Virus record (IMG/VR): IMGVR_UViG_3300011982_000022
Span: 1-5,206 of that record
Strand: one strand, 5' to 3'
From: a virus
Length of the DNA stretch: 5,206 nt
Shown: one piece after another, positions 1-5,206 of the stretch
Position numbering within the stretch: position 1 is the first letter of the stretch
Layout: each line of letters opens with the position of its first letter
Program-made: the position numbers and the translations under genes
The notes under the pieces: generated by a model
Databases searched by the model: none
The model's input: only the letters and a program-made list of their open reading frames with translations
Told to the model about the DNA's origin: nothing

Positions 1-99
1 ATTCTTCCTCCAAAACTGAAATAATTTTATAATTACCTTTTACTTGCGCTTTTAATTCTCGAACCATCGGCGTAAGTATCTTGTAATTCCGTCTACCAA
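1..99. repeat. Terminal redundancy copy 1; identical to 5108-5206. Circular genome, unit length 5107 nt
   Basis: Direct comparison: window 1-99 (attcttcctccaaaactgaaataattttataattacc...gtctaccaa) is base-for-base identical to 5108-5206. Microviridae genomes are circular ssDNA, so this is most simply a linearisation/assembly overlap. Confidence 0.95.
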
Positions 100-160
100 G
101 TAAACGCAAAATACGTTTAATCAATTCTAAATCTTCAACAGGTACCATTACATAATCCAT
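1..160 (-). CDS. Hypothetical small protein, 53 aa (MDYVMVPVEDLELIKRILRLLGRRNYKILTPMVRELKAQVKGNYKIISVLEEE). Sense codons are 2-160; the stop codon TGA is formed across the circular junction (5106-5107 plus 1), i.e. 5106-5108 in the duplicated copy
   Basis: ATG at 160-158 preceded by AAGGAG (169-164) with a 6-nt spacer. Hand translation of the minus strand gives an uninterrupted 53-codon frame. Same strand as all other genes. Too short for the ORF track. The stop TGA overlaps the ATG of the next ORF (TGATG). Confidence 0.5.
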   Translation of the reverse strand, partial: MDYVMVPVEDLELIKRILRLLGRRNYKILTPMVRELKAQVKGNYKIISVLEEE

Positions 161-206
161 AAATCGCTCCTTATTCTGTCTATCTGATTTACATCCCATA
201 ATGTAT

Positions 207-235
207 AGTATGTCGCCAACTTTTTCATCTGTCAA
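207..235 (-). promoter_or_regulatory. Candidate sigma70-like promoter on the minus strand: TTGACA (235-230), 17-nt spacer, CATACT (212-207), upstream of the 53-aa ORF
   Basis: Perfect -35 hexamer TTGACA. The -10 candidate CATACT keeps the conserved A2 and T6. It lies in the 64-nt gap between the 46-aa and 53-aa ORFs. The -10 is weak, and TACTAT at a 19-nt spacing is the alternative. Confidence 0.2.
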
Positions 236-365
236 GTAATTTTTTTATAAACTTATAAAAAACTACACAAACAACAACCAAAAGCACTAACATTGCCAAC
301 GCCGAAAGCAAACCAGCAACATCCATTCTAGAATTCTGCACAACATCAACATCTCTAACACCCAT
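225..365 (-). CDS. Small single-pass membrane protein, 46 aa (MGVRDVDVVQNSRMDVAGLLSALAMLVLLVVVCVVFYKFIKKLLDR)
   Basis: ATG at 365-363 with GAGGT (372-376, overlapping the VP2 stop TGA) 6 nt upstream. The frame was verified codon by codon and stops at TGA 227-225. A 22-residue uninterrupted hydrophobic core (VAGLLSALAMLVLLVVVCVVFY) is followed by a basic tail (KFIKKLLDR). Not in the ORF track (below size cutoff). Confidence 0.55.
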   Translation of the reverse strand: MGVRDVDVVQNSRMDVAGLLSALAMLVLLVVVCVVFYKFIKKLLDR

Positions 366-1274: not shown

Positions 1275-1308
1275 TTAGGGGAAAGGGGTTGCGCCCCCTT
1301 TCCCCTAA
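1275..1308 (-). terminator. Hairpin H2: perfect GC-rich 14-bp stem (1275-1288 ttaggggaaagggg / 1295-1308 cccctttcccctaa) with a 6-nt loop ttgcgc. Candidate intrinsic terminator after the VP4-VP1-scaffold transcript, or origin/packaging element
   Basis: Read directly. It lies 5 nt downstream of the scaffold-like ORF stop (1313-1315) on the mRNA strand. On the minus strand the stem is followed by UUCAAUUUG, an imperfect U-tract. Confidence 0.5.
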
Positions 1309-1710: not shown

Positions 1711-3498
1711 TCAATGATCAATAAGACCGGGAACGGGAATAAGCGGCATCGGACGCCACGCATCAACACGCGTCAAAATCTCGATCACCGCACAATTTTC
1801 ATCATGCACCGCGAAAATATCCTTACGAGGATAACAACGTATAAACGATGAGTTCAACTGCGGAGGATTCGCCGGATCAAATTGCCGAGCCAAATGCCAA
1901 TAACCATATTTTTTACGCATATCACCGCAAACCTGCGTTGTCTTTGCACGATATTCATCATACCGCCCTTGATAACCGAACAAACCGGCAGCACCATCAC
2001 CAAGCTGCGCAGGTGTCATAACCGACGGAGACGCAACCAATTCAGCTTCACGCACTTCCTGTTCAGATAAATTAGCAAACTCGGGAAGATAGAAATCATA
2101 CCGCGACCGTCGCAACATTTCACGATGAATACCTTGCGAACTAAACGACTGGTCCGGACGCAAAAAAGCAAGACCGATTACATAGCCATGTTCACGAGCG
2201 CTAAACTTTCCAACAAAATCACCACCAATCGAAACACCACGAGACGCTAAATTACCTTGCGGACTGTTCGAAACCGACGAAGATGTCTGAACAACCTCAT
2301 TAACCAATACAACCGATTTAGTACCTCCAATAAAATGCGGACGCTGGAGTGTATCATCATTCGGCGCTACACCAAACACAGACAAAAGACCTTCAACATA
2401 CCGAGCACCTCCACGCGCCATTCGCTCCATAAAACGTTGGGTTTGAAACATCAAACGCATATCCGATACATCCGCAAAACTTGACGATTCCAACGGAAAA
2501 CGAGAATAAGCTAAACGCTGAGGAACACCCTCAGGTTGCTTAGTAGTAGACACACGATTATTTGCTGGCAAAATATTCCCAGTATTATTAACTATAAGTT
2601 TTTGCTCAGTATCATTTATATAATTTGAATCAAAATCAGCATAATTTGAATTAAAAGTAGGAAATGGCGGATCTTCCATAAAAGCAGCATTAGCAGTACG
2701 TCTATGAAAACGTTCTAAATATAATCTTGCATTATCCACAGAAGTAGGAACCAATGTAAAACCAGGAGAACTCAAAGGCAAAGCAACCGGCTCACCACGC
2801 TGTTGCCACGGCAAAGACGATGTAAAATAATTTGAGGTCCACGTACACAAGAACAATCCCATATCATCGAGCTTTCGTTCATCTTCCAAGTTCTCATTTC
2901 GATAACATTCGTTGTAAATATAATTATACGCAATCAACGGAAAAGCAAGCGGACAATACGCCGAATAATCTGTATCCGCACCATTCTTTCCAACATCACT
3001 CAAATCTCCAAATCCAACAGACGTCGGAAATCCAAACGCATCCCAGAGCGAACCGACAGCATCAGCTTTTCCAGTTCGAGGAACAAGGGCGCCACTGACA
3101 ACTTTTGAACCAGAAATTCGAACATCATTTTTATTCGGAATCCAGAGGGGCAGGGTAGGGGTAATACCGGCTTCAGTTACTCCATCACCTTTCTTTCCGC
3201 CAAAAATAAAAGTCTCCCAACCTTTTGCAATTTCGGGAAACTTCTGCTGATACAATACACGAGAGGGAACATACCAGAAATGCGTTATAAACTTAATACC
3301 AGTCATCGGAACCGACACCATCGGTAAAAGCCGAACAAGCGCCGAAGCGCTTATTTTCAACACATCACCAGGAATAACTTCTCGGAAATATACAGGATGA
3401 ACTTCACCCATATCACAAGAATACATCTTATGATTATCCAAACGGAACCGCGACCGTTTCAAATGCCGAACAGGCACTTGTCCGAATACATCCATCAT
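1711..3498 (-). CDS. VP1: Major capsid protein VP1 (F-like jelly-roll), 595 aa
   Basis: ORF track. N-terminus RSRFRLDNHKMYSCDMGEVHPVYFREVIPGDVL matches the conserved gokushovirus VP1 start (RNRF.L...DMG.L.P...EVLPGD). AAGGAG is 4 nt upstream of the ATG. The ATG (3498-3496) overlaps the upstream ORF stop (ATGA). The size is typical of Gokushovirinae VP1. Confidence 0.93.
   Translation of the reverse strand: MMDVFGQVPVRHLKRSRFRLDNHKMYSCDMGEVHPVYFREVIPGDVLKISASALVRLLPMVSVPMTGIKFITHFWYVPSRVLYQQKFPEIAKGWETFIFGGKKGDGVTEAGITPTLPLWIPNKNDVRISGSKVVSGALVPRTGKADAVGSLWDAFGFPTSVGFGDLSDVGKNGADTDYSAYCPLAFPLIAYNYIYNECYRNENLEDERKLDDMGLFLCTWTSNYFTSSLPWQQRGEPVALPLSSPGFTLVPTSVDNARLYLERFHRRTANAAFMEDPPFPTFNSNYADFDSNYINDTEQKLIVNNTGNILPANNRVSTTKQPEGVPQRLAYSRFPLESSSFADVSDMRLMFQTQRFMERMARGGARYVEGLLSVFGVAPNDDTLQRPHFIGGTKSVVLVNEVVQTSSSVSNSPQGNLASRGVSIGGDFVGKFSAREHGYVIGLAFLRPDQSFSSQGIHREMLRRSRYDFYLPEFANLSEQEVREAELVASPSVMTPAQLGDGAAGLFGYQGRYDEYRAKTTQVCGDMRKKYGYWHLARQFDPANPPQLNSSFIRCYPRKDIFAVHDENCAVIEILTRVDAWRPMPLIPVPGLIDH
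2620..2661. repeat. Imperfect 21-nt tandem duplication inside VP1 (2620-2640 ataatttgaatcaaaatcagc / 2641-2661 ataatttgaattaaaagtagg; 17 of 21 identical), encoding the 7-aa repeat PTFNSNY/ADFDSNY
   Basis: Direct alignment of the two adjacent 21-mers. It lies in a visibly AT-rich island (about 2560-2700) of the VP1 gene. Confidence 0.6.
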
Positions 3499-3818
3499 TC
3501 AGCTCCTTGCGAAATCTGTTCCGCAGAAATAGGCTCAACCTCTGATTCAACCGAAGCATCTTCATCATACAAAACATCACACGCTTTCATTACTTCTTGA
3601 GGAATTATTTTTATATCTTCAGAAAAAACAATTCCCGTTTCTTCATCATAATCGCACATCGAAATCAACGAAAAATCATCCAACGAAATATTCTTTTGCT
3701 TTACCATAACACGATTCACCGTATCTGCAAAAATACGCTTCGCGACACCGTCATTCTTTGCATTGAACACATTTCCACACAATTCAGCAACCTTATCGTA
3801 AATACAATAGATTTTCAT
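3495..3818 (-). CDS. Hypothetical acidic protein, 107 aa, in the VP5 / protein-C position between the replication initiator and VP1
   Basis: ORF track. ATG at 3818 preceded by GAGGTG with a 5-nt spacer (GTGAGGTGTAAAAATG). It begins 2 nt after the VP4 stop, and its stop overlaps the VP1 start (ATGA at 3495-3498). The C-terminus is acidic (DEDASVESEVEPISAEQ). Confidence 0.75.
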   Translation of the reverse strand: MKIYCIYDKVAELCGNVFNAKNDGVAKRIFADTVNRVMVKQKNISLDDFSLISMCDYDEETGIVFSEDIKIIPQEVMKACDVLYDEDASVESEVEPISAEQISQGAE

Positions 3819-3820
3819 TT

Positions 3821-4690
3821 TTACACCTCACTATGTTTGTTATAAAGCGATATCTTTGAATTGACAGTCTGTTCACGCAATCGAGCATTTTTCCTACGCT
3901 CCGAAAGATAATACATGTATGCCATATCATAATCATTCTGATCAGACAGCGAAAACTCGGAACCAAACTTCGACGAAAAAATACGCGCAAAACGCAAAAA
4001 ATCTTCCTGCTCTTTATCACGCATCAATTCATTAAGCCGTTCCTTGTCCACATGGATTTTTTCTCGGTAATAACGAGGCAACGCCATCACATGCTTATCA
4101 ATTCGCACTAAACCGCTTTCCTTTAAAAAATCTGCATTCTCGATCGCAAAACCGAGACCTAAACCACGCGAACAAAGCGAGAAGGGCGGAGTAAGACCAT
4201 TTTCTTGATAATACGTCTTTCCAGACTTACCGTACAATTTTTTCTGCACATAGCCAGCAACATACCTACAACTATCATACGTTACCGATCCAATAGCTTT
4301 AGACGGCAAACACGCCCAATCTGCATACATCCACGCATTTTTAATTAACATTCTGTCAACCAAATCATTGGAATCCAGACCATATACTATTGCATGATAA
4401 TGTGGACGATGTGTTACATCACCATATTCACCAACCGCATAATATTTTATCTTGCGACCACCTAAAGACTTGCGTAATCGTTTGAAAAACAGCTGTACGT
4501 GCCTTTTACGTAGATTAGGCGGCAGATCTGCATCACGATATGTCAACGTGATAAACGCCGCACTTTTCCAATCTCTCAACTCAAACATTAAACGCATAGC
4601 CCATTGGTGAGACCGCATGATTTTACACGGCATGCAATGACCACAGGGCAGTGGAACACCGCCCTTATAAAAAGGGCGGACACAAACCAT
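3821..4690 (-). CDS. VP4: Rolling-circle replication initiation protein VP4 (HUH endonuclease, superfamily I; phiX174 gene A-like), 289 aa
   Basis: ORF track. Motif I FITLTY, motif II HYHAIVY, motif III YVAGYVQKK with two Tyr (compare phiX174 A YVAKYVNKK). N-terminal Cys cluster PCGHCMPC. The ATG at 4690 lies 2 nt after the stop of the Arg-rich peptide. Confidence 0.92.
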   Translation of the reverse strand: MVCVRPFYKGGVPLPCGHCMPCKIMRSHQWAMRLMFELRDWKSAAFITLTYRDADLPPNLRKRHVQLFFKRLRKSLGGRKIKYYAVGEYGDVTHRPHYHAIVYGLDSNDLVDRMLIKNAWMYADWACLPSKAIGSVTYDSCRYVAGYVQKKLYGKSGKTYYQENGLTPPFSLCSRGLGLGFAIENADFLKESGLVRIDKHVMALPRYYREKIHVDKERLNELMRDKEQEDFLRFARIFSSKFGSEFSLSDQNDYDMAYMYYLSERRKNARLREQTVNSKISLYNKHSEV

Positions 4691-4692
4691 AT

Positions 4693-4764
4693 TTACCTGC
4701 TGAAACCGCCTCTACGACGGCTATACTTCGTTATACGACGATGACGTCTTCGACGACGGCTCAC
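4693..4764 (-). CDS. Arginine-rich 23-aa peptide (M/V-SRRRRRHRRITKYSRRRGGFSR), GTG start. Candidate DNA-binding/packaging protein analogous to phiX174 J or gokushovirus VP8
   Basis: Hand translation of the minus strand: GTG at 4764-4762 preceded by a perfect GGAGG (4775-4771) with a 6-nt spacer, in-frame stop TAA at 4695-4693, and an upstream in-frame stop that bounds the ORF. 12 of 23 residues are Arg. Its GTG overlaps the TGA of the upstream 64-aa ORF (GTGA), and it ends 2 nt before the VP4 ATG. Not in the ORF track. Confidence 0.55.
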   Translation of the reverse strand: MSRRRRRHRRITKYSRRRGGFSR

Positions 4765-4955
4765 TTTTTACCTCCGGAAATCAATGAAACACCGGCTACC
4801 GTGCCAAAAATAGATTGCAATATTTTGACTGCAATATCAACGCCGCTATTGATGTGAGCAAGCGACTCGTTGCCCAAAACAATAGAGAGAGCGCAAAACA
4901 CAACAGCAAGAAAAAACATGAGCATTTTCACCCATTTATTCTTGAGAAATTCCAT
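4761..4955 (-). CDS. Small membrane protein, 64 aa (MEFLKNKWVKMLMFFLAVVFCALSIVLGNESLAHINSGVDIAVKILQSIFGTVAGVSLISGGKK), using the internal ATG of track ORF 4761..5024
   Basis: ATG at 4955-4953 has GGAGGT (4968-4963) with a 5-nt spacer. The track start at 5024 has no SD within range. Lys-rich N-terminus, then an 18-residue hydrophobic helix MLMFFLAVVFCALSIVLG, then a second weakly hydrophobic segment (IAVKILQSIFGTVAGVSLI). Confidence 0.6.
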   Translation of the reverse strand: MEFLKNKWVKMLMFFLAVVFCALSIVLGNESLAHINSGVDIAVKILQSIFGTVAGVSLISGGKK

Positions 4956-5106
4956 CTGAAACCTCCGTACCTTCAAAAACCTTCGCAACAACAGGCGAAC
5001 GATTTTGATTAAGCCAATCAACATAAGCCTGCGCCTTGTCTAAATCAGTGTAAGACCGACACCACGTTTGAAAGTCTTTCGACACCAACACAAAAAATAC
5101 CTTCAT
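4936..5106 (-). CDS. Hypothetical small protein, 56 aa (MKVFFVLVSKDFQTWCRSYTDLDKAQAYVDWLNQNRSPVVAKVFEGTEVSDGISQE)
   Basis: ATG at 5106-5104 preceded by a perfect GGAGG with a 7-nt spacer (ttGGAGGaagaatgATG). The ATG shares its A with the TGA stop of the 53-aa ORF (TGATG). The frame was verified by hand to TAA at 4938-4936, so its 3' end overlaps the SD and first 19 nt of the 64-aa membrane ORF in another frame. The sequence is non-repetitive and looks like a real protein. Not in the ORF track. Confidence 0.45.
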   Translation of the reverse strand: MKVFFVLVSKDFQTWCRSYTDLDKAQAYVDWLNQNRSPVVAKVFEGTEVSDGISQE

Positions 5107-5107
5107 C

Positions 5108-5206
5108 ATTCTTCCTCCAAAACTGAAATAATTTTATAATTACCTTTTACTTGCGCTTTTAATTCTCGAACCATCGGCGTAAGTATCTTGTAATTCCGTC
5201 TACCAA
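5108..5206. repeat. Terminal redundancy copy 2 (same as 1-99)
   Basis: Exact 99-nt identity with window start. It contains the 3' part of the 53-aa ORF a second time. Confidence 0.95.

What the first reader, a model, noticed from the sequence alone, without database searches (positions are those of the whole stretch)
4761..4955. 64-aa membrane protein: candidate single-gene lysis or membrane-targeting factor
The protein has a Lys-rich N-terminus, one clear transmembrane helix (MLMFFLAVVFCALSIVLG) and a second amphipathic or weakly hydrophobic segment. A strong GGAGGT SD places the real start at the internal ATG 4955 rather than the track start 5024. Gokushovirus-type microviruses are not known to carry a homologue of phiX174 E and their lysis mechanism is essentially uncharacterised. 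A small membrane protein encoded just before the Arg-rich peptide and VP4 is therefore a plausible amurin-like or holin-like candidate.
Basis: inference. Interest (0 to 1): 0.7.

Follow-up and report, generated by a model that had tools for sequence, protein, structure and literature searches.

The report
Orphan small membrane protein, Treponema microvirus
The 64-codon ORF is a real, selected gene for a small inner-membrane protein found only in one narrow group of microvirus prophages of the oral spirochaete Treponema socranskii; it could be the phage's lysis factor, but that is untested and a second small membrane gene in the same genome is at least as good a candidate.

Summary
Window 4761-4955 (minus strand) encodes a 64-aa protein. 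GGAGGT sits 5 nt before the ATG, and both are kept in all 18 related copies. The protein has a Lys-rich N-terminus, one strong transmembrane helix (residues 11-28) and a weakly hydrophobic, amphipathic Gly/Ala/Ser-rich second helix. Purifying selection (pN/pS 0.20) matches that on the capsid and scaffold genes.

The window is the free circular form (5107 nt) of a gokushovirus-like prophage. It integrates at a dif-like site downstream of mreBCD-pbp2-rodA in Treponema socranskii. The protein is an orphan: there is no significant homologue outside its own cluster (>=86% identity) in 1.84 billion representatives, and no Pfam, PHROG, NCBIfam, PADLOC or PDB match.

The lysis reading is plausible because no lysin enzyme is encoded, but it is unproven and weakened in three ways:
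- The nearest outgroup genomes examined lack this gene.
- A fast-evolving 46-aa single-TM ORF after VP2 (225-365) is a rival candidate. It has a positional counterpart in the one outgroup genome that shares this gene order.
- The features I take to define E-type amurins and holins are not met.

One unexpected result: gene nt 54-116 (window 4839-4901) is frozen at synonymous sites, the most conserved coding stretch in the genome. I could not explain this.

The parts
4761..4955 (-). 64-aa ORF (stop included): the small membrane protein under study
   Evidence: Intact in all 18 copies; pN/pS 0.20.
4961..4966 (-). Shine-Dalgarno GGAGGT, 5 nt before the ATG at 4955. It lies inside the 3' end of the upstream 56/57-aa ORF.
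   Evidence: Read from the sequence. Invariant in the 13 copies aligned with their upstream region.
4872..4925 (-). Codons 11-28: strong transmembrane helix MLMFFLAVVFCALSIVLG
   Evidence: Kyte-Doolittle mean up to 2.64. Hessa-scale sum -1.6. AlphaFold2 helix 7-28.
4770..4841 (-). Codons 39-62: amphipathic, weakly hydrophobic Gly/Ala/Ser-rich second helix with a G51xxxG55 motif. It is either a marginal second TM segment or an interfacial helix.
   Evidence: muH up to 0.47. Hessa-scale sum +4.2 to +5.5. AlphaFold2 helix 35-60. This is the part of the protein that varies most between clades.
4839..4901 (-). Frozen core: 63 nt (codons 19-39) with one variant site in 18 copies. Synonymous sites are suppressed; the cause is unknown.
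   Evidence: It contains the lowest-variation window of 1343 genome-wide 28-codon windows.
4693..4764 (-). Arg-rich 23-aa peptide (MSRRRRRHRRITKYSRRRGGFSR). Its GTG start overlaps the target's stop codon (GTGA), and its SD is formed by the target's GGKK codons.
   Evidence: Read from the sequence. Conserved, with an ATGA overlap in the other clade.
4936..5109 (-). Upstream 56/57-aa soluble ORF. It overlaps the target's start by 20 nt and has a likely homologue in the outgroup L178.
   Evidence: pN/pS 0.25-0.29.
225..365 (-). Rival candidate: 46-aa single-TM ORF directly after VP2, with a hydrophilic N-terminus, a TM helix and a basic C-tail
   Evidence: (pN/pS 0.64). Replaced by an unrelated-looking 47-aa protein of the same layout in the L001/L087 clade. 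L178 has a 32-aa TM ORF in the same slot.
187..217 (-). dif-like attP site (GGCGACATACTATACATTATGGGATGTAAAT). This is context showing that the element is a temperate microvirus that probably integrates through XerCD.
   Evidence: The same core flanks the prophage as attL and attR in L001 and L085-L091.

Best explanation
Shown: the ORF is a bona fide gene of a temperate gokushovirus-like microvirus of Treponema socranskii. It encodes a 64-aa membrane protein with a positively charged N-terminus, one strong transmembrane helix, an invariant short loop (GNESLAHINSG), and a Gly/Ala/Ser-rich amphipathic helix ending in KK. That second helix either re-enters the membrane as a hairpin or lies on its surface. 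The gene sits in one tightly overlapping block (56/57-aa ORF > 64-aa > Arg-rich peptide > VP4), an arrangement suited to translational coupling.

Inferred: the N-terminus faces the cytoplasm, by the positive-inside rule. The protein is made together with the replication and packaging genes. My best single guess is that it acts on the host cytoplasmic membrane or envelope-synthesis machinery to cause or time host lysis. It could do this as a single-gene lysis protein that binds a conserved membrane target, or as a pinholin-like depolarising oligomer that uses the GxxxG-bearing weak helix. No endolysin is encoded.
For: Real gene: the SD and start are conserved, third-position variation dominates, pN/pS is 0.20, and the gene is intact in 18 of 18 copies, including prophages in long chromosomal contigs.

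Membrane character.

No enzymatic lysin: all other ORFs are VP1-VP5, the Arg-rich peptide, or small ORFs without lysin domains. Lysis therefore has to come from a small or overprinted ORF, and nearly all known single-gene lysis proteins are small membrane proteins (established knowledge; PMC3394797 and PMC7062461 for the open question in gokushoviruses).

A conserved partner: the loop and TM1 are invariant at the amino-acid level across clades whose core genes differ by pS 0.26-0.38. This fits a specific interaction with a conserved partner.
Against: - There is no homology to any lysis or holin family.
- The gene is absent from the nearest outgroup genomes examined, which must also lyse their hosts.
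- A second small TM ORF (46 aa) has the more typical single-gene-lysis layout and rapid evolution, and it has a positional counterpart in the outgroup that shares the gene order.
- The strong SD predicts abundant synthesis early in the operon. That is unlike the weakly expressed E protein of phiX174 (inference).
- Part of the protein's apparent conservation is confounded by a nucleotide-level constraint that also freezes synonymous sites.
Confidence: 0.35

Rival explanations
1. The 46-aa post-VP2 ORF (225-365) is the lysis protein. The 64-aa protein is an accessory inner-membrane protein that serves the temperate lifestyle, for example by blocking DNA delivery from incoming phage at the membrane (superinfection exclusion).
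For: The element is a prophage integrated at a dif-like site. Gokushovirus carriage confers superinfection immunity by an unknown mechanism (PMC7062461). The 64-aa gene is clade-specific, like a moron. It lies in the first 700 nt of the prophage, co-oriented with the upstream host rodA operon, so read-through could express it in lysogens (only a weak terminator-like site). The 46/47-aa ORF has the E/LysM-like N-out/TM/basic-tail layout, pN/pS 0.64, wholesale replacement between clades, and a positional counterpart in L178.
Against: The 64-aa gene has no promoter of its own. Its reading frame overlaps lytic-cycle genes on both sides. An exclusion protein aimed at the fast-evolving pilot protein VP2 (pN/pS 0.34) would be expected to co-evolve rather than stay nearly invariant.
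Confidence: 0.28
2. It is a non-essential membrane-located modulator of the lytic cycle, analogous to phiX174 protein K. It might tether replication or assembly to the membrane or tune burst size, without being either the lysis effector or an exclusion factor.
For: It sits next to the replication initiator VP4 and the Arg-rich DNA-binding peptide and overlaps both neighbours. phiX174 K is likewise a small membrane protein encoded beside gene A (established knowledge). Related lineages examined do without the gene.
Against: There is no sequence or structural similarity to K or to any other protein. The strong purifying selection is more than would be expected for a dispensable modulator.
Confidence: 0.2
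3. The segment is conserved mainly because it carries a cis-acting nucleic-acid element, such as a replication or complementary-strand origin, a packaging signal or an RNA element, or because it contains an overprinted gene. On this reading the 64-aa product is secondary.
For: Codons 12-39 have 1 variable third position out of 28. That is the lowest of 1343 genome-wide windows, where the median is about 15. pS there is 0.013, against 0.26-0.38 in core genes. Alternative-frame ORFs exist: a +1 frame 37-aa ORF open in all 13 copies checked, and a +2 frame 30-aa ATG ORF that abuts the upstream stop codon. An imperfect hairpin lies in the core.
Against: Outside the core the ORF still shows coding-type selection in frame 0: codons 39-64 have pN/pS 0.26, and all variable sites in codons 1-10 of the first 13 copies are at third positions. 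The hairpin is weak (z -0.8 to -2.1), and there is no Rfam hit and no promoter-like site. The +1 ORF has no ATG or SD. The +2 ORF is truncated in L092 and its N-terminus varies non-synonymously. No motif is shared with outgroup genomes.
Confidence: 0.12

Closest known systems
phiX174 protein E (single-gene lysis protein, MraY inhibitor; Bullavirinae)
   Same: Both are small membrane proteins of a microvirus that encodes no muralytic enzyme, which makes this protein a candidate to cause lysis by itself.
   Different: There is no sequence similarity and no Pfam hit. E has a single N-terminal TM helix (N-out/C-in, with an essential Pro) and is overprinted inside gene D. This protein has a Lys-rich N-terminus that predicts N-in, no Pro in its TM helix, a second helix, and its own genomic slot. 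In layout the 46-aa ORF (225-365) resembles E more closely.
Class II holins / pinholin S21-68 of phage 21
   Same: Both are about 64-71 aa with two helical hydrophobic segments, one of them weakly hydrophobic and Gly/Ala/Ser-rich (SAR-like). A predicted N-in/C-in hairpin is possible for both.
   Different: The order of strong and weak helices is reversed. The C-terminus is only KK rather than a long charged tail. There is no conserved dual start, because M11 is I or V in relatives. No endolysin partner exists in the genome, and no holin family matches.
MS2 L-type single-gene lysis proteins (ssRNA phages)
   Same: Both have a short basic N-terminus followed by a hydrophobic helix that contains an invariant Leu-Ser dipeptide (L23-S24). 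The L-type proteins also lyse without any enzymatic domain.
   Different: The resemblance is recalled from memory and carries little information. The L-type TM helix is C-terminal and its basic domain is longer. There is no homology.
phiX174 protein K; T4 Imm and HK97 gp15-type superinfection-exclusion proteins
   Same: All are small phage inner-membrane proteins that are not lysis effectors. K is encoded beside the replication gene, while Imm and gp15 are small two-TM proteins that block DNA entry.
   Different: There is no sequence similarity. No independent promoter or expression in lysogens has been shown here.

Membership tests
phiX174 E-type amurin (Pfam Microvir_lysis) | Sequence homology to protein E | tested here: not met
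   No Pfam, PHROG or NCBIfam hit. No significant homologue outside its own cluster in 1.84e9 proteins.
phiX174 E-type amurin (Pfam Microvir_lysis) | A single N-terminal TM helix, N-out/C-in, with a Pro-containing helix and a basic cytoplasmic C-terminal domain | tested here: not met
   The N-terminus carries 3 Lys and 1 Glu, which predicts N-in. TM1 has no Pro. A second helix follows and the C-terminus is only KK.
phiX174 E-type amurin (Pfam Microvir_lysis) | Inhibition of MraY, causing septal lysis of growing cells | not testable with these tools
   This needs expression and suppressor genetics.
Holins (class II / pinholin) | Two transmembrane segments with N-in/C-in topology | tested here: inconclusive
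   TM1 is clear (Hessa-scale sum -1.6). Helix 2 is marginal (+4 to +5) and amphipathic (muH 0.47). The AlphaFold2 two-helix model has pLDDT 63.5.
Holins (class II / pinholin) | A highly charged hydrophilic C-terminal tail | tested here: not met
   The C-terminus is GGKK or GVKK only.
Holins (class II / pinholin) | A dual-start motif giving holin and antiholin forms | tested here: not met
   The second Met (M11) is Ile or Val in several relatives.
Holins (class II / pinholin) | Genetic linkage to an endolysin | tested here: not met
   No muralytic domain was found in any ORF of the 5107-nt genome.
MS2 L-like single-gene lysis proteins | A basic N-terminal region, a hydrophobic helix and a conserved LS dipeptide | tested here: inconclusive
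   The pattern is present (K5, K7, K10; TM1; invariant L23-S24). It is low in complexity, and the definition is recalled from memory with no profile to test against.
Conserved gokushovirus gene set (VP1-VP5, Arg-rich VP8-like peptide) | Presence and synteny across related gokushovirus genomes | tested here: not met
   The gene is absent from L177/L178, L174/L175 and L176. Only 3 of 120 relatives have any small TM ORF ending within 500 nt upstream of VP4, and none is homologous.
Superinfection-exclusion membrane proteins of temperate phages | Expression from the prophage and a block to incoming phage DNA | not testable with these tools
   Only the context is known: a prophage at a dif-like site, with the gene near the left end and co-oriented with host rodA.

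The most novel reading that the evidence does not exclude
The 64-aa protein is a new, sequence-orphan 'protein antibiotic' or pinholin-like lysis effector of a spirochaete-infecting gokushovirus. Its gene also carries a cis-acting DNA or RNA element in the synonymously frozen 63-nt core, such as the still unmapped gokushovirus replication or complementary-strand origin. That would make it a dual-use coding segment.
Probability: 0.12. Interest if true: 0.8.

Novelty: new member of a known kind. Interest (0 to 1): 0.45.

Why it matters
How gokushoviruses lyse their hosts is an open question. They are among the most abundant ssDNA phages, and most encode no lysin and no E homologue (PMC7062461, PMC3394797). 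This genome narrows the non-overprinted small-ORF candidates with a TM helix to two, of 64 and 46 aa, with opposite evolutionary behaviour. That makes the question testable by expression and by genome resynthesis.

If the 64-aa protein binds a conserved envelope-synthesis target in Treponema, it would be a new protein antibiotic against an oral pathogen group. The data also place a microvirus prophage inside a 2.8-Mb Treponema chromosome contig, which gives firmer support for a spirochaete host than the single-contig MAG associations previously regarded as doubtful (PMC9239249).

Tried and rejected
- Homology searches for the 64-aa protein all found nothing useful. This covers Pfam, PHROGs (best hit phrog_29673, E=0.076, function unknown), NCBIfam, PADLOC, a PDB sequence profile, tblastn against GenBank phages (only E=6 noise), Foldseek of the AlphaFold2 model against PDB (0 hits), and a profile HMM search of 1.84e9 proteins. 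The only extra hit in that last search was a 259-aa repetitive protein at E=1e-5, judged compositional.
- Megablast of the whole genome against GenBank phages gave no match. The best VP1 hit is only about 40% identical.
- The 87-aa reading from ATG 5024 was rejected: there is no comparable SD, it lies inside the 56/57-aa ORF, and no database calls it.
- The 54-aa reading from M11 was rejected: M11 is not conserved.
- A positional counterpart upstream of VP4 was rejected as a general feature across about 120 distant relatives.
- Explanations tried for the frozen core:
  - DNA or RNA structure: z -0.8 to -2.1, not convincing.
  - A sigma-70-like promoter: none found on the coding strand.
  - Rfam: no hit.
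  - A phiX-like origin 8-mer (TTGATATT) just downstream: not conserved in relatives.
  - Motifs shared with outgroup genomes: none.
  - An exact 40-mer search in IMG/VR: no match.
  - Overprinted ORFs in the +1 and +2 frames: weak support.
- Base composition gives no sign of recent foreign origin.

Full report
**What the window is.** The 5206-base window is a circular genome of 5107 nt with a 99-nt terminal overlap. All genes lie on the minus strand. In order they are:
- a 53-aa ORF (starts at 162 and crosses the junction);
- a 56/57-aa ORF (4936-5109);
- the 64-aa ORF of the finding (4761-4955);
- a 23-aa Arg-rich peptide (4693-4764);
- VP4 (3821-4690), VP5 (3495-3818), VP1 (1711-3498), VP3 (1313-1714) and VP2 (375-1196);
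- a 46-aa ORF (225-365).

VP4, VP5 and VP1 hit the expected Pfam and PHROG families. No ORF has a muralytic or peptidase domain. GenBank phages contain nothing close: megablast finds nothing, and the best VP1 hit is about 40% identical.

**Checking the observation.** Residues 11-28 form a strong transmembrane segment (Kyte-Doolittle mean up to 2.64; crude Hessa-scale sum -1.6). Residues 39-62 are amphipathic (muH up to 0.47) and only marginally hydrophobic (Hessa sum +4 to +5). AlphaFold2 with the shallow family alignment gives two helices, 7-28 and 35-60, at low confidence (pLDDT 63.5). Charge distribution (K5, K7, K10 against E2; a loop with E30; KK at the end) favours an N-terminus in the cytoplasm. 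The second helix then either re-enters the membrane as a hairpin or lies at the periplasmic interface. That topology is inferred, not shown.

**Is it a real gene?** ORF length alone is not evidence, because the window has many spurious ORFs of similar length. The comparative data are decisive.
- A search of 5.8 billion proteins found nine clusters at 86-98% identity. All are 64 aa, or 54 aa where a gene caller chose M11.
- I retrieved 17 further copies of the locus.
- The ATG is kept in all 18 copies. The GGAGGT, the 20-nt overlap with the upstream ORF and the 4-nt GTGA/ATGA overlap with the Arg-rich peptide are kept in the 13 copies aligned with their flanks.
- Variable sites fall 23:15:5 on codon positions 3:1:2 across the 18 copies, and 18:9:4 in the first 13.
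- Among eight full genomes pN/pS is 0.20. VP4 is 0.11, VP3 0.20, VP1 0.23 and VP2 0.34.
- M11 is Ile or Val in several relatives, so there is no conserved second start.
- The 87-aa reading from ATG 5024 has no comparable SD and lies inside the upstream ORF.

**Host and lifestyle.** One homologue lies in a 2.8-Mb contig of Treponema socranskii (GCA_050768795.1). There, and in several long metagenomic contigs, the whole phage is integrated between the mreB-mreC-mreD-pbp2-rodA operon and an NTP-transferase gene, with all phage genes intact. The junctions carry a direct repeat, ATACATTATGGGATGTAAT. The attP site in the window (187-217, GGCGACATACTATACATTATGGGATGTAAAT) resembles the reverse complement of bacterial dif. 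This matches the XerCD/dif route described for other gokushovirus prophages (PMC7062461, PMC3091885). Free circular copies also occur: the window itself, L092 and L182.

**Distribution of the gene.** The family is an orphan.
- A profile HMM search of 1.84 billion representative proteins returned its own cluster plus one repetitive 259-aa protein that I judge compositional.
- VP4 identity drops from 94% within the clade to 53% or less for the next relatives.
- In the outgroup L177/L178, which shares this gene order (VP4 about 46% identical), a homologue of the 56/57-aa ORF is followed directly by the Arg-rich peptide. No membrane ORF lies between them.
- In a crude survey of 120 related genomes, only 3 have any small TM ORF ending within 500 nt upstream of VP4, and none is homologous.

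The gene is conserved within the clade and absent outside it.

**The rival candidate.** The 46-aa ORF after VP2 has a hydrophilic N-terminus, a very hydrophobic helix (Hessa-scale sum -4) and a basic tail (KFIKKLLDR). As I recall them, E and LysM share this layout. It evolves fast (pN/pS 0.64). In the L001/L087 clade it is replaced by an unrelated-looking 47-aa protein with the same layout. L178 has a 32-aa TM ORF in the same post-VP2 slot. In L176 a 45-aa TM ORF sits between VP2 and the Arg-rich peptide. Rapid turnover with a preserved architecture is what single-gene lysis proteins typically show (established knowledge). If one ancestral slot holds the lysis gene, this slot is the better guess, and that lowers the probability that the 64-aa protein is the lysis effector.

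**An unexpected feature.** Gene nt 54-116 (window 4839-4901, codons 19-39) is almost invariant at the nucleotide level.
- Only one variant site occurs in 18 copies (10 haplotypes).
- Among eight full genomes the 28-codon window starting at codon 12 has 1 variable third position. That is the lowest of 1343 windows genome-wide, where the median is about 15.
- pS is 0.013 for codons 11-38, against 0.26-0.38 in core genes.
- The 60-nt diversity there is the genome minimum, 0.004.

So a constraint beyond the 64-aa protein acts here. I found no convincing cause:
- Folding is unremarkable (z -0.8 to -2.1).
- There is no promoter-like site on the coding strand and no Rfam hit.
- No motif is shared with outgroups.
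- The +1 frame ORF lacks an ATG and an SD.
- The +2 frame ATG ORF abuts the upstream stop codon, but it is truncated in L092 and varies non-synonymously at its N-terminus.

This also means that the striking invariance of TM1 and the loop cannot be read purely as protein-level constraint.

**How it most likely works.**
- *Shown:* this is a selected gene for a small membrane protein, packed with overlapping reading frames into the block that also encodes the DNA-binding peptide and the replication initiator, in a temperate Treponema microvirus that has no lysin.
- *Inferred:* it inserts N-in into the cytoplasmic membrane. Because something small must lyse the host, my best single guess is a lysis or lysis-timing role. 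It could bind a conserved envelope-synthesis protein, or it could oligomerise through its G51xxxG55-bearing weak helix to depolarise the membrane, as a pinholin does. My confidence is 0.35.
- *Rivals:* a superinfection-exclusion or lysogeny-associated membrane protein, with the 46-aa ORF as the lysis gene (0.28); a K-like modulator of the lytic cycle (0.20); and an ORF conserved chiefly because of an embedded cis element or overprinted gene (0.12).

**Comparison with known families.** It is not a member of the E family. There is no homology, the predicted orientation is opposite, the helix has no Pro, and the gene is not overprinted. It also fails holin criteria: no charged C-tail, no conserved dual start, no endolysin partner and no family match. 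The L-type pattern (basic N-terminus, hydrophobic helix, LS dipeptide) is present but uninformative. It may still work like one of these proteins; failing the membership tests does not exclude that.

**Verdict.** In novelty terms it is a new, orphan member of the known kind 'small phage membrane proteins'. Interest is moderate (0.45). It rests on the testable two-candidate design for the gokushovirus lysis problem, the synonymous-site freeze, and the well-supported spirochaete host.

Noticed in passing
window 187-217 (attP); L001 about 9,620-14,830; L085, L087, L089-L091 junctions: The window is the free circular form of a microvirus prophage. It is integrated at a dif-like site just downstream of mreBCD-pbp2-rodA in Treponema socranskii (2.8-Mb contig of GCA_050768795.1) and in several long metagenomic contigs. 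attL and attR share ATACATTATGGGATGTAAT. Earlier associations of microviruses with spirochaetes were regarded as doubtful (PMC9239249).
   Followed up: partly
window 207-235 (minus strand): This is one of the four best sigma-70-like matches in the scan (10 of 12 positions): TTGACA-N17-CATACT. It overlaps the end of the 46-aa ORF and the dif-like site, just upstream of the first phage gene. In the prophage the whole element stays at attR and points into host DNA, while host sequence replaces it at attL. Integration might therefore uncouple the phage operon from its promoter. This is inference from a consensus match only.
   Followed up: partly
window 225-365 (minus strand): A second small membrane ORF (46 aa; hydrophilic N-terminus, TM helix, basic tail) follows VP2. 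Its pN/pS is 0.64. In the L001/L087 clade an unrelated-looking 47-aa protein with the same layout replaces it, and outgroup L178 has a 32-aa TM ORF in the same slot. It is a rival lysis candidate.
   Followed up: partly
window 4839-4901 (minus strand): A 63-nt stretch inside the target ORF is frozen at synonymous sites, with 1 variant site in 18 copies. It contains the most conserved 28-codon window in the genome. The cause was not identified.
   Followed up: partly
window 1275-1308 (minus strand): A strong GC-rich hairpin (TTAGGGGAAAGGGGGCGCAACCCCTTTCCCCTAA; 14 pairs) lies in the VP3-VP2 intergenic region, and local diversity just downstream of it is low (60-nt window from 1256: 0.046). It could be a terminator or a complementary-strand origin.
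   Followed up: no
window 1-162 plus the circular junction (minus strand): A 53-aa helical ORF is the first gene after attP. It shows pN/pS of about 1.6 among relatives, with a fast-changing C-terminal half and an N-terminal extension to 78 aa in L092. No family matches it.
   Followed up: no
L004/L095 (92-aa ORF upstream of VP4); L175 (93-aa ORF): Some distant relatives carry small ORFs that look like lipoproteins (signal peptide plus Cys lipobox, for example ...LVFYGCNSS and ...AIASC) in accessory slots. This suggests that envelope-targeted accessory proteins recur in this virus group.
   Followed up: no
L094 (Ga0099364 contig, 15,969 nt), about 3,100-7,640: Another microvirus prophage (VP4 42% identical) lies between an NAD-dependent DNA ligase gene and an oxidoreductase gene. 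A 49-aa ORF with a weak hydrophobic helix sits upstream of its VP4.
   Followed up: no
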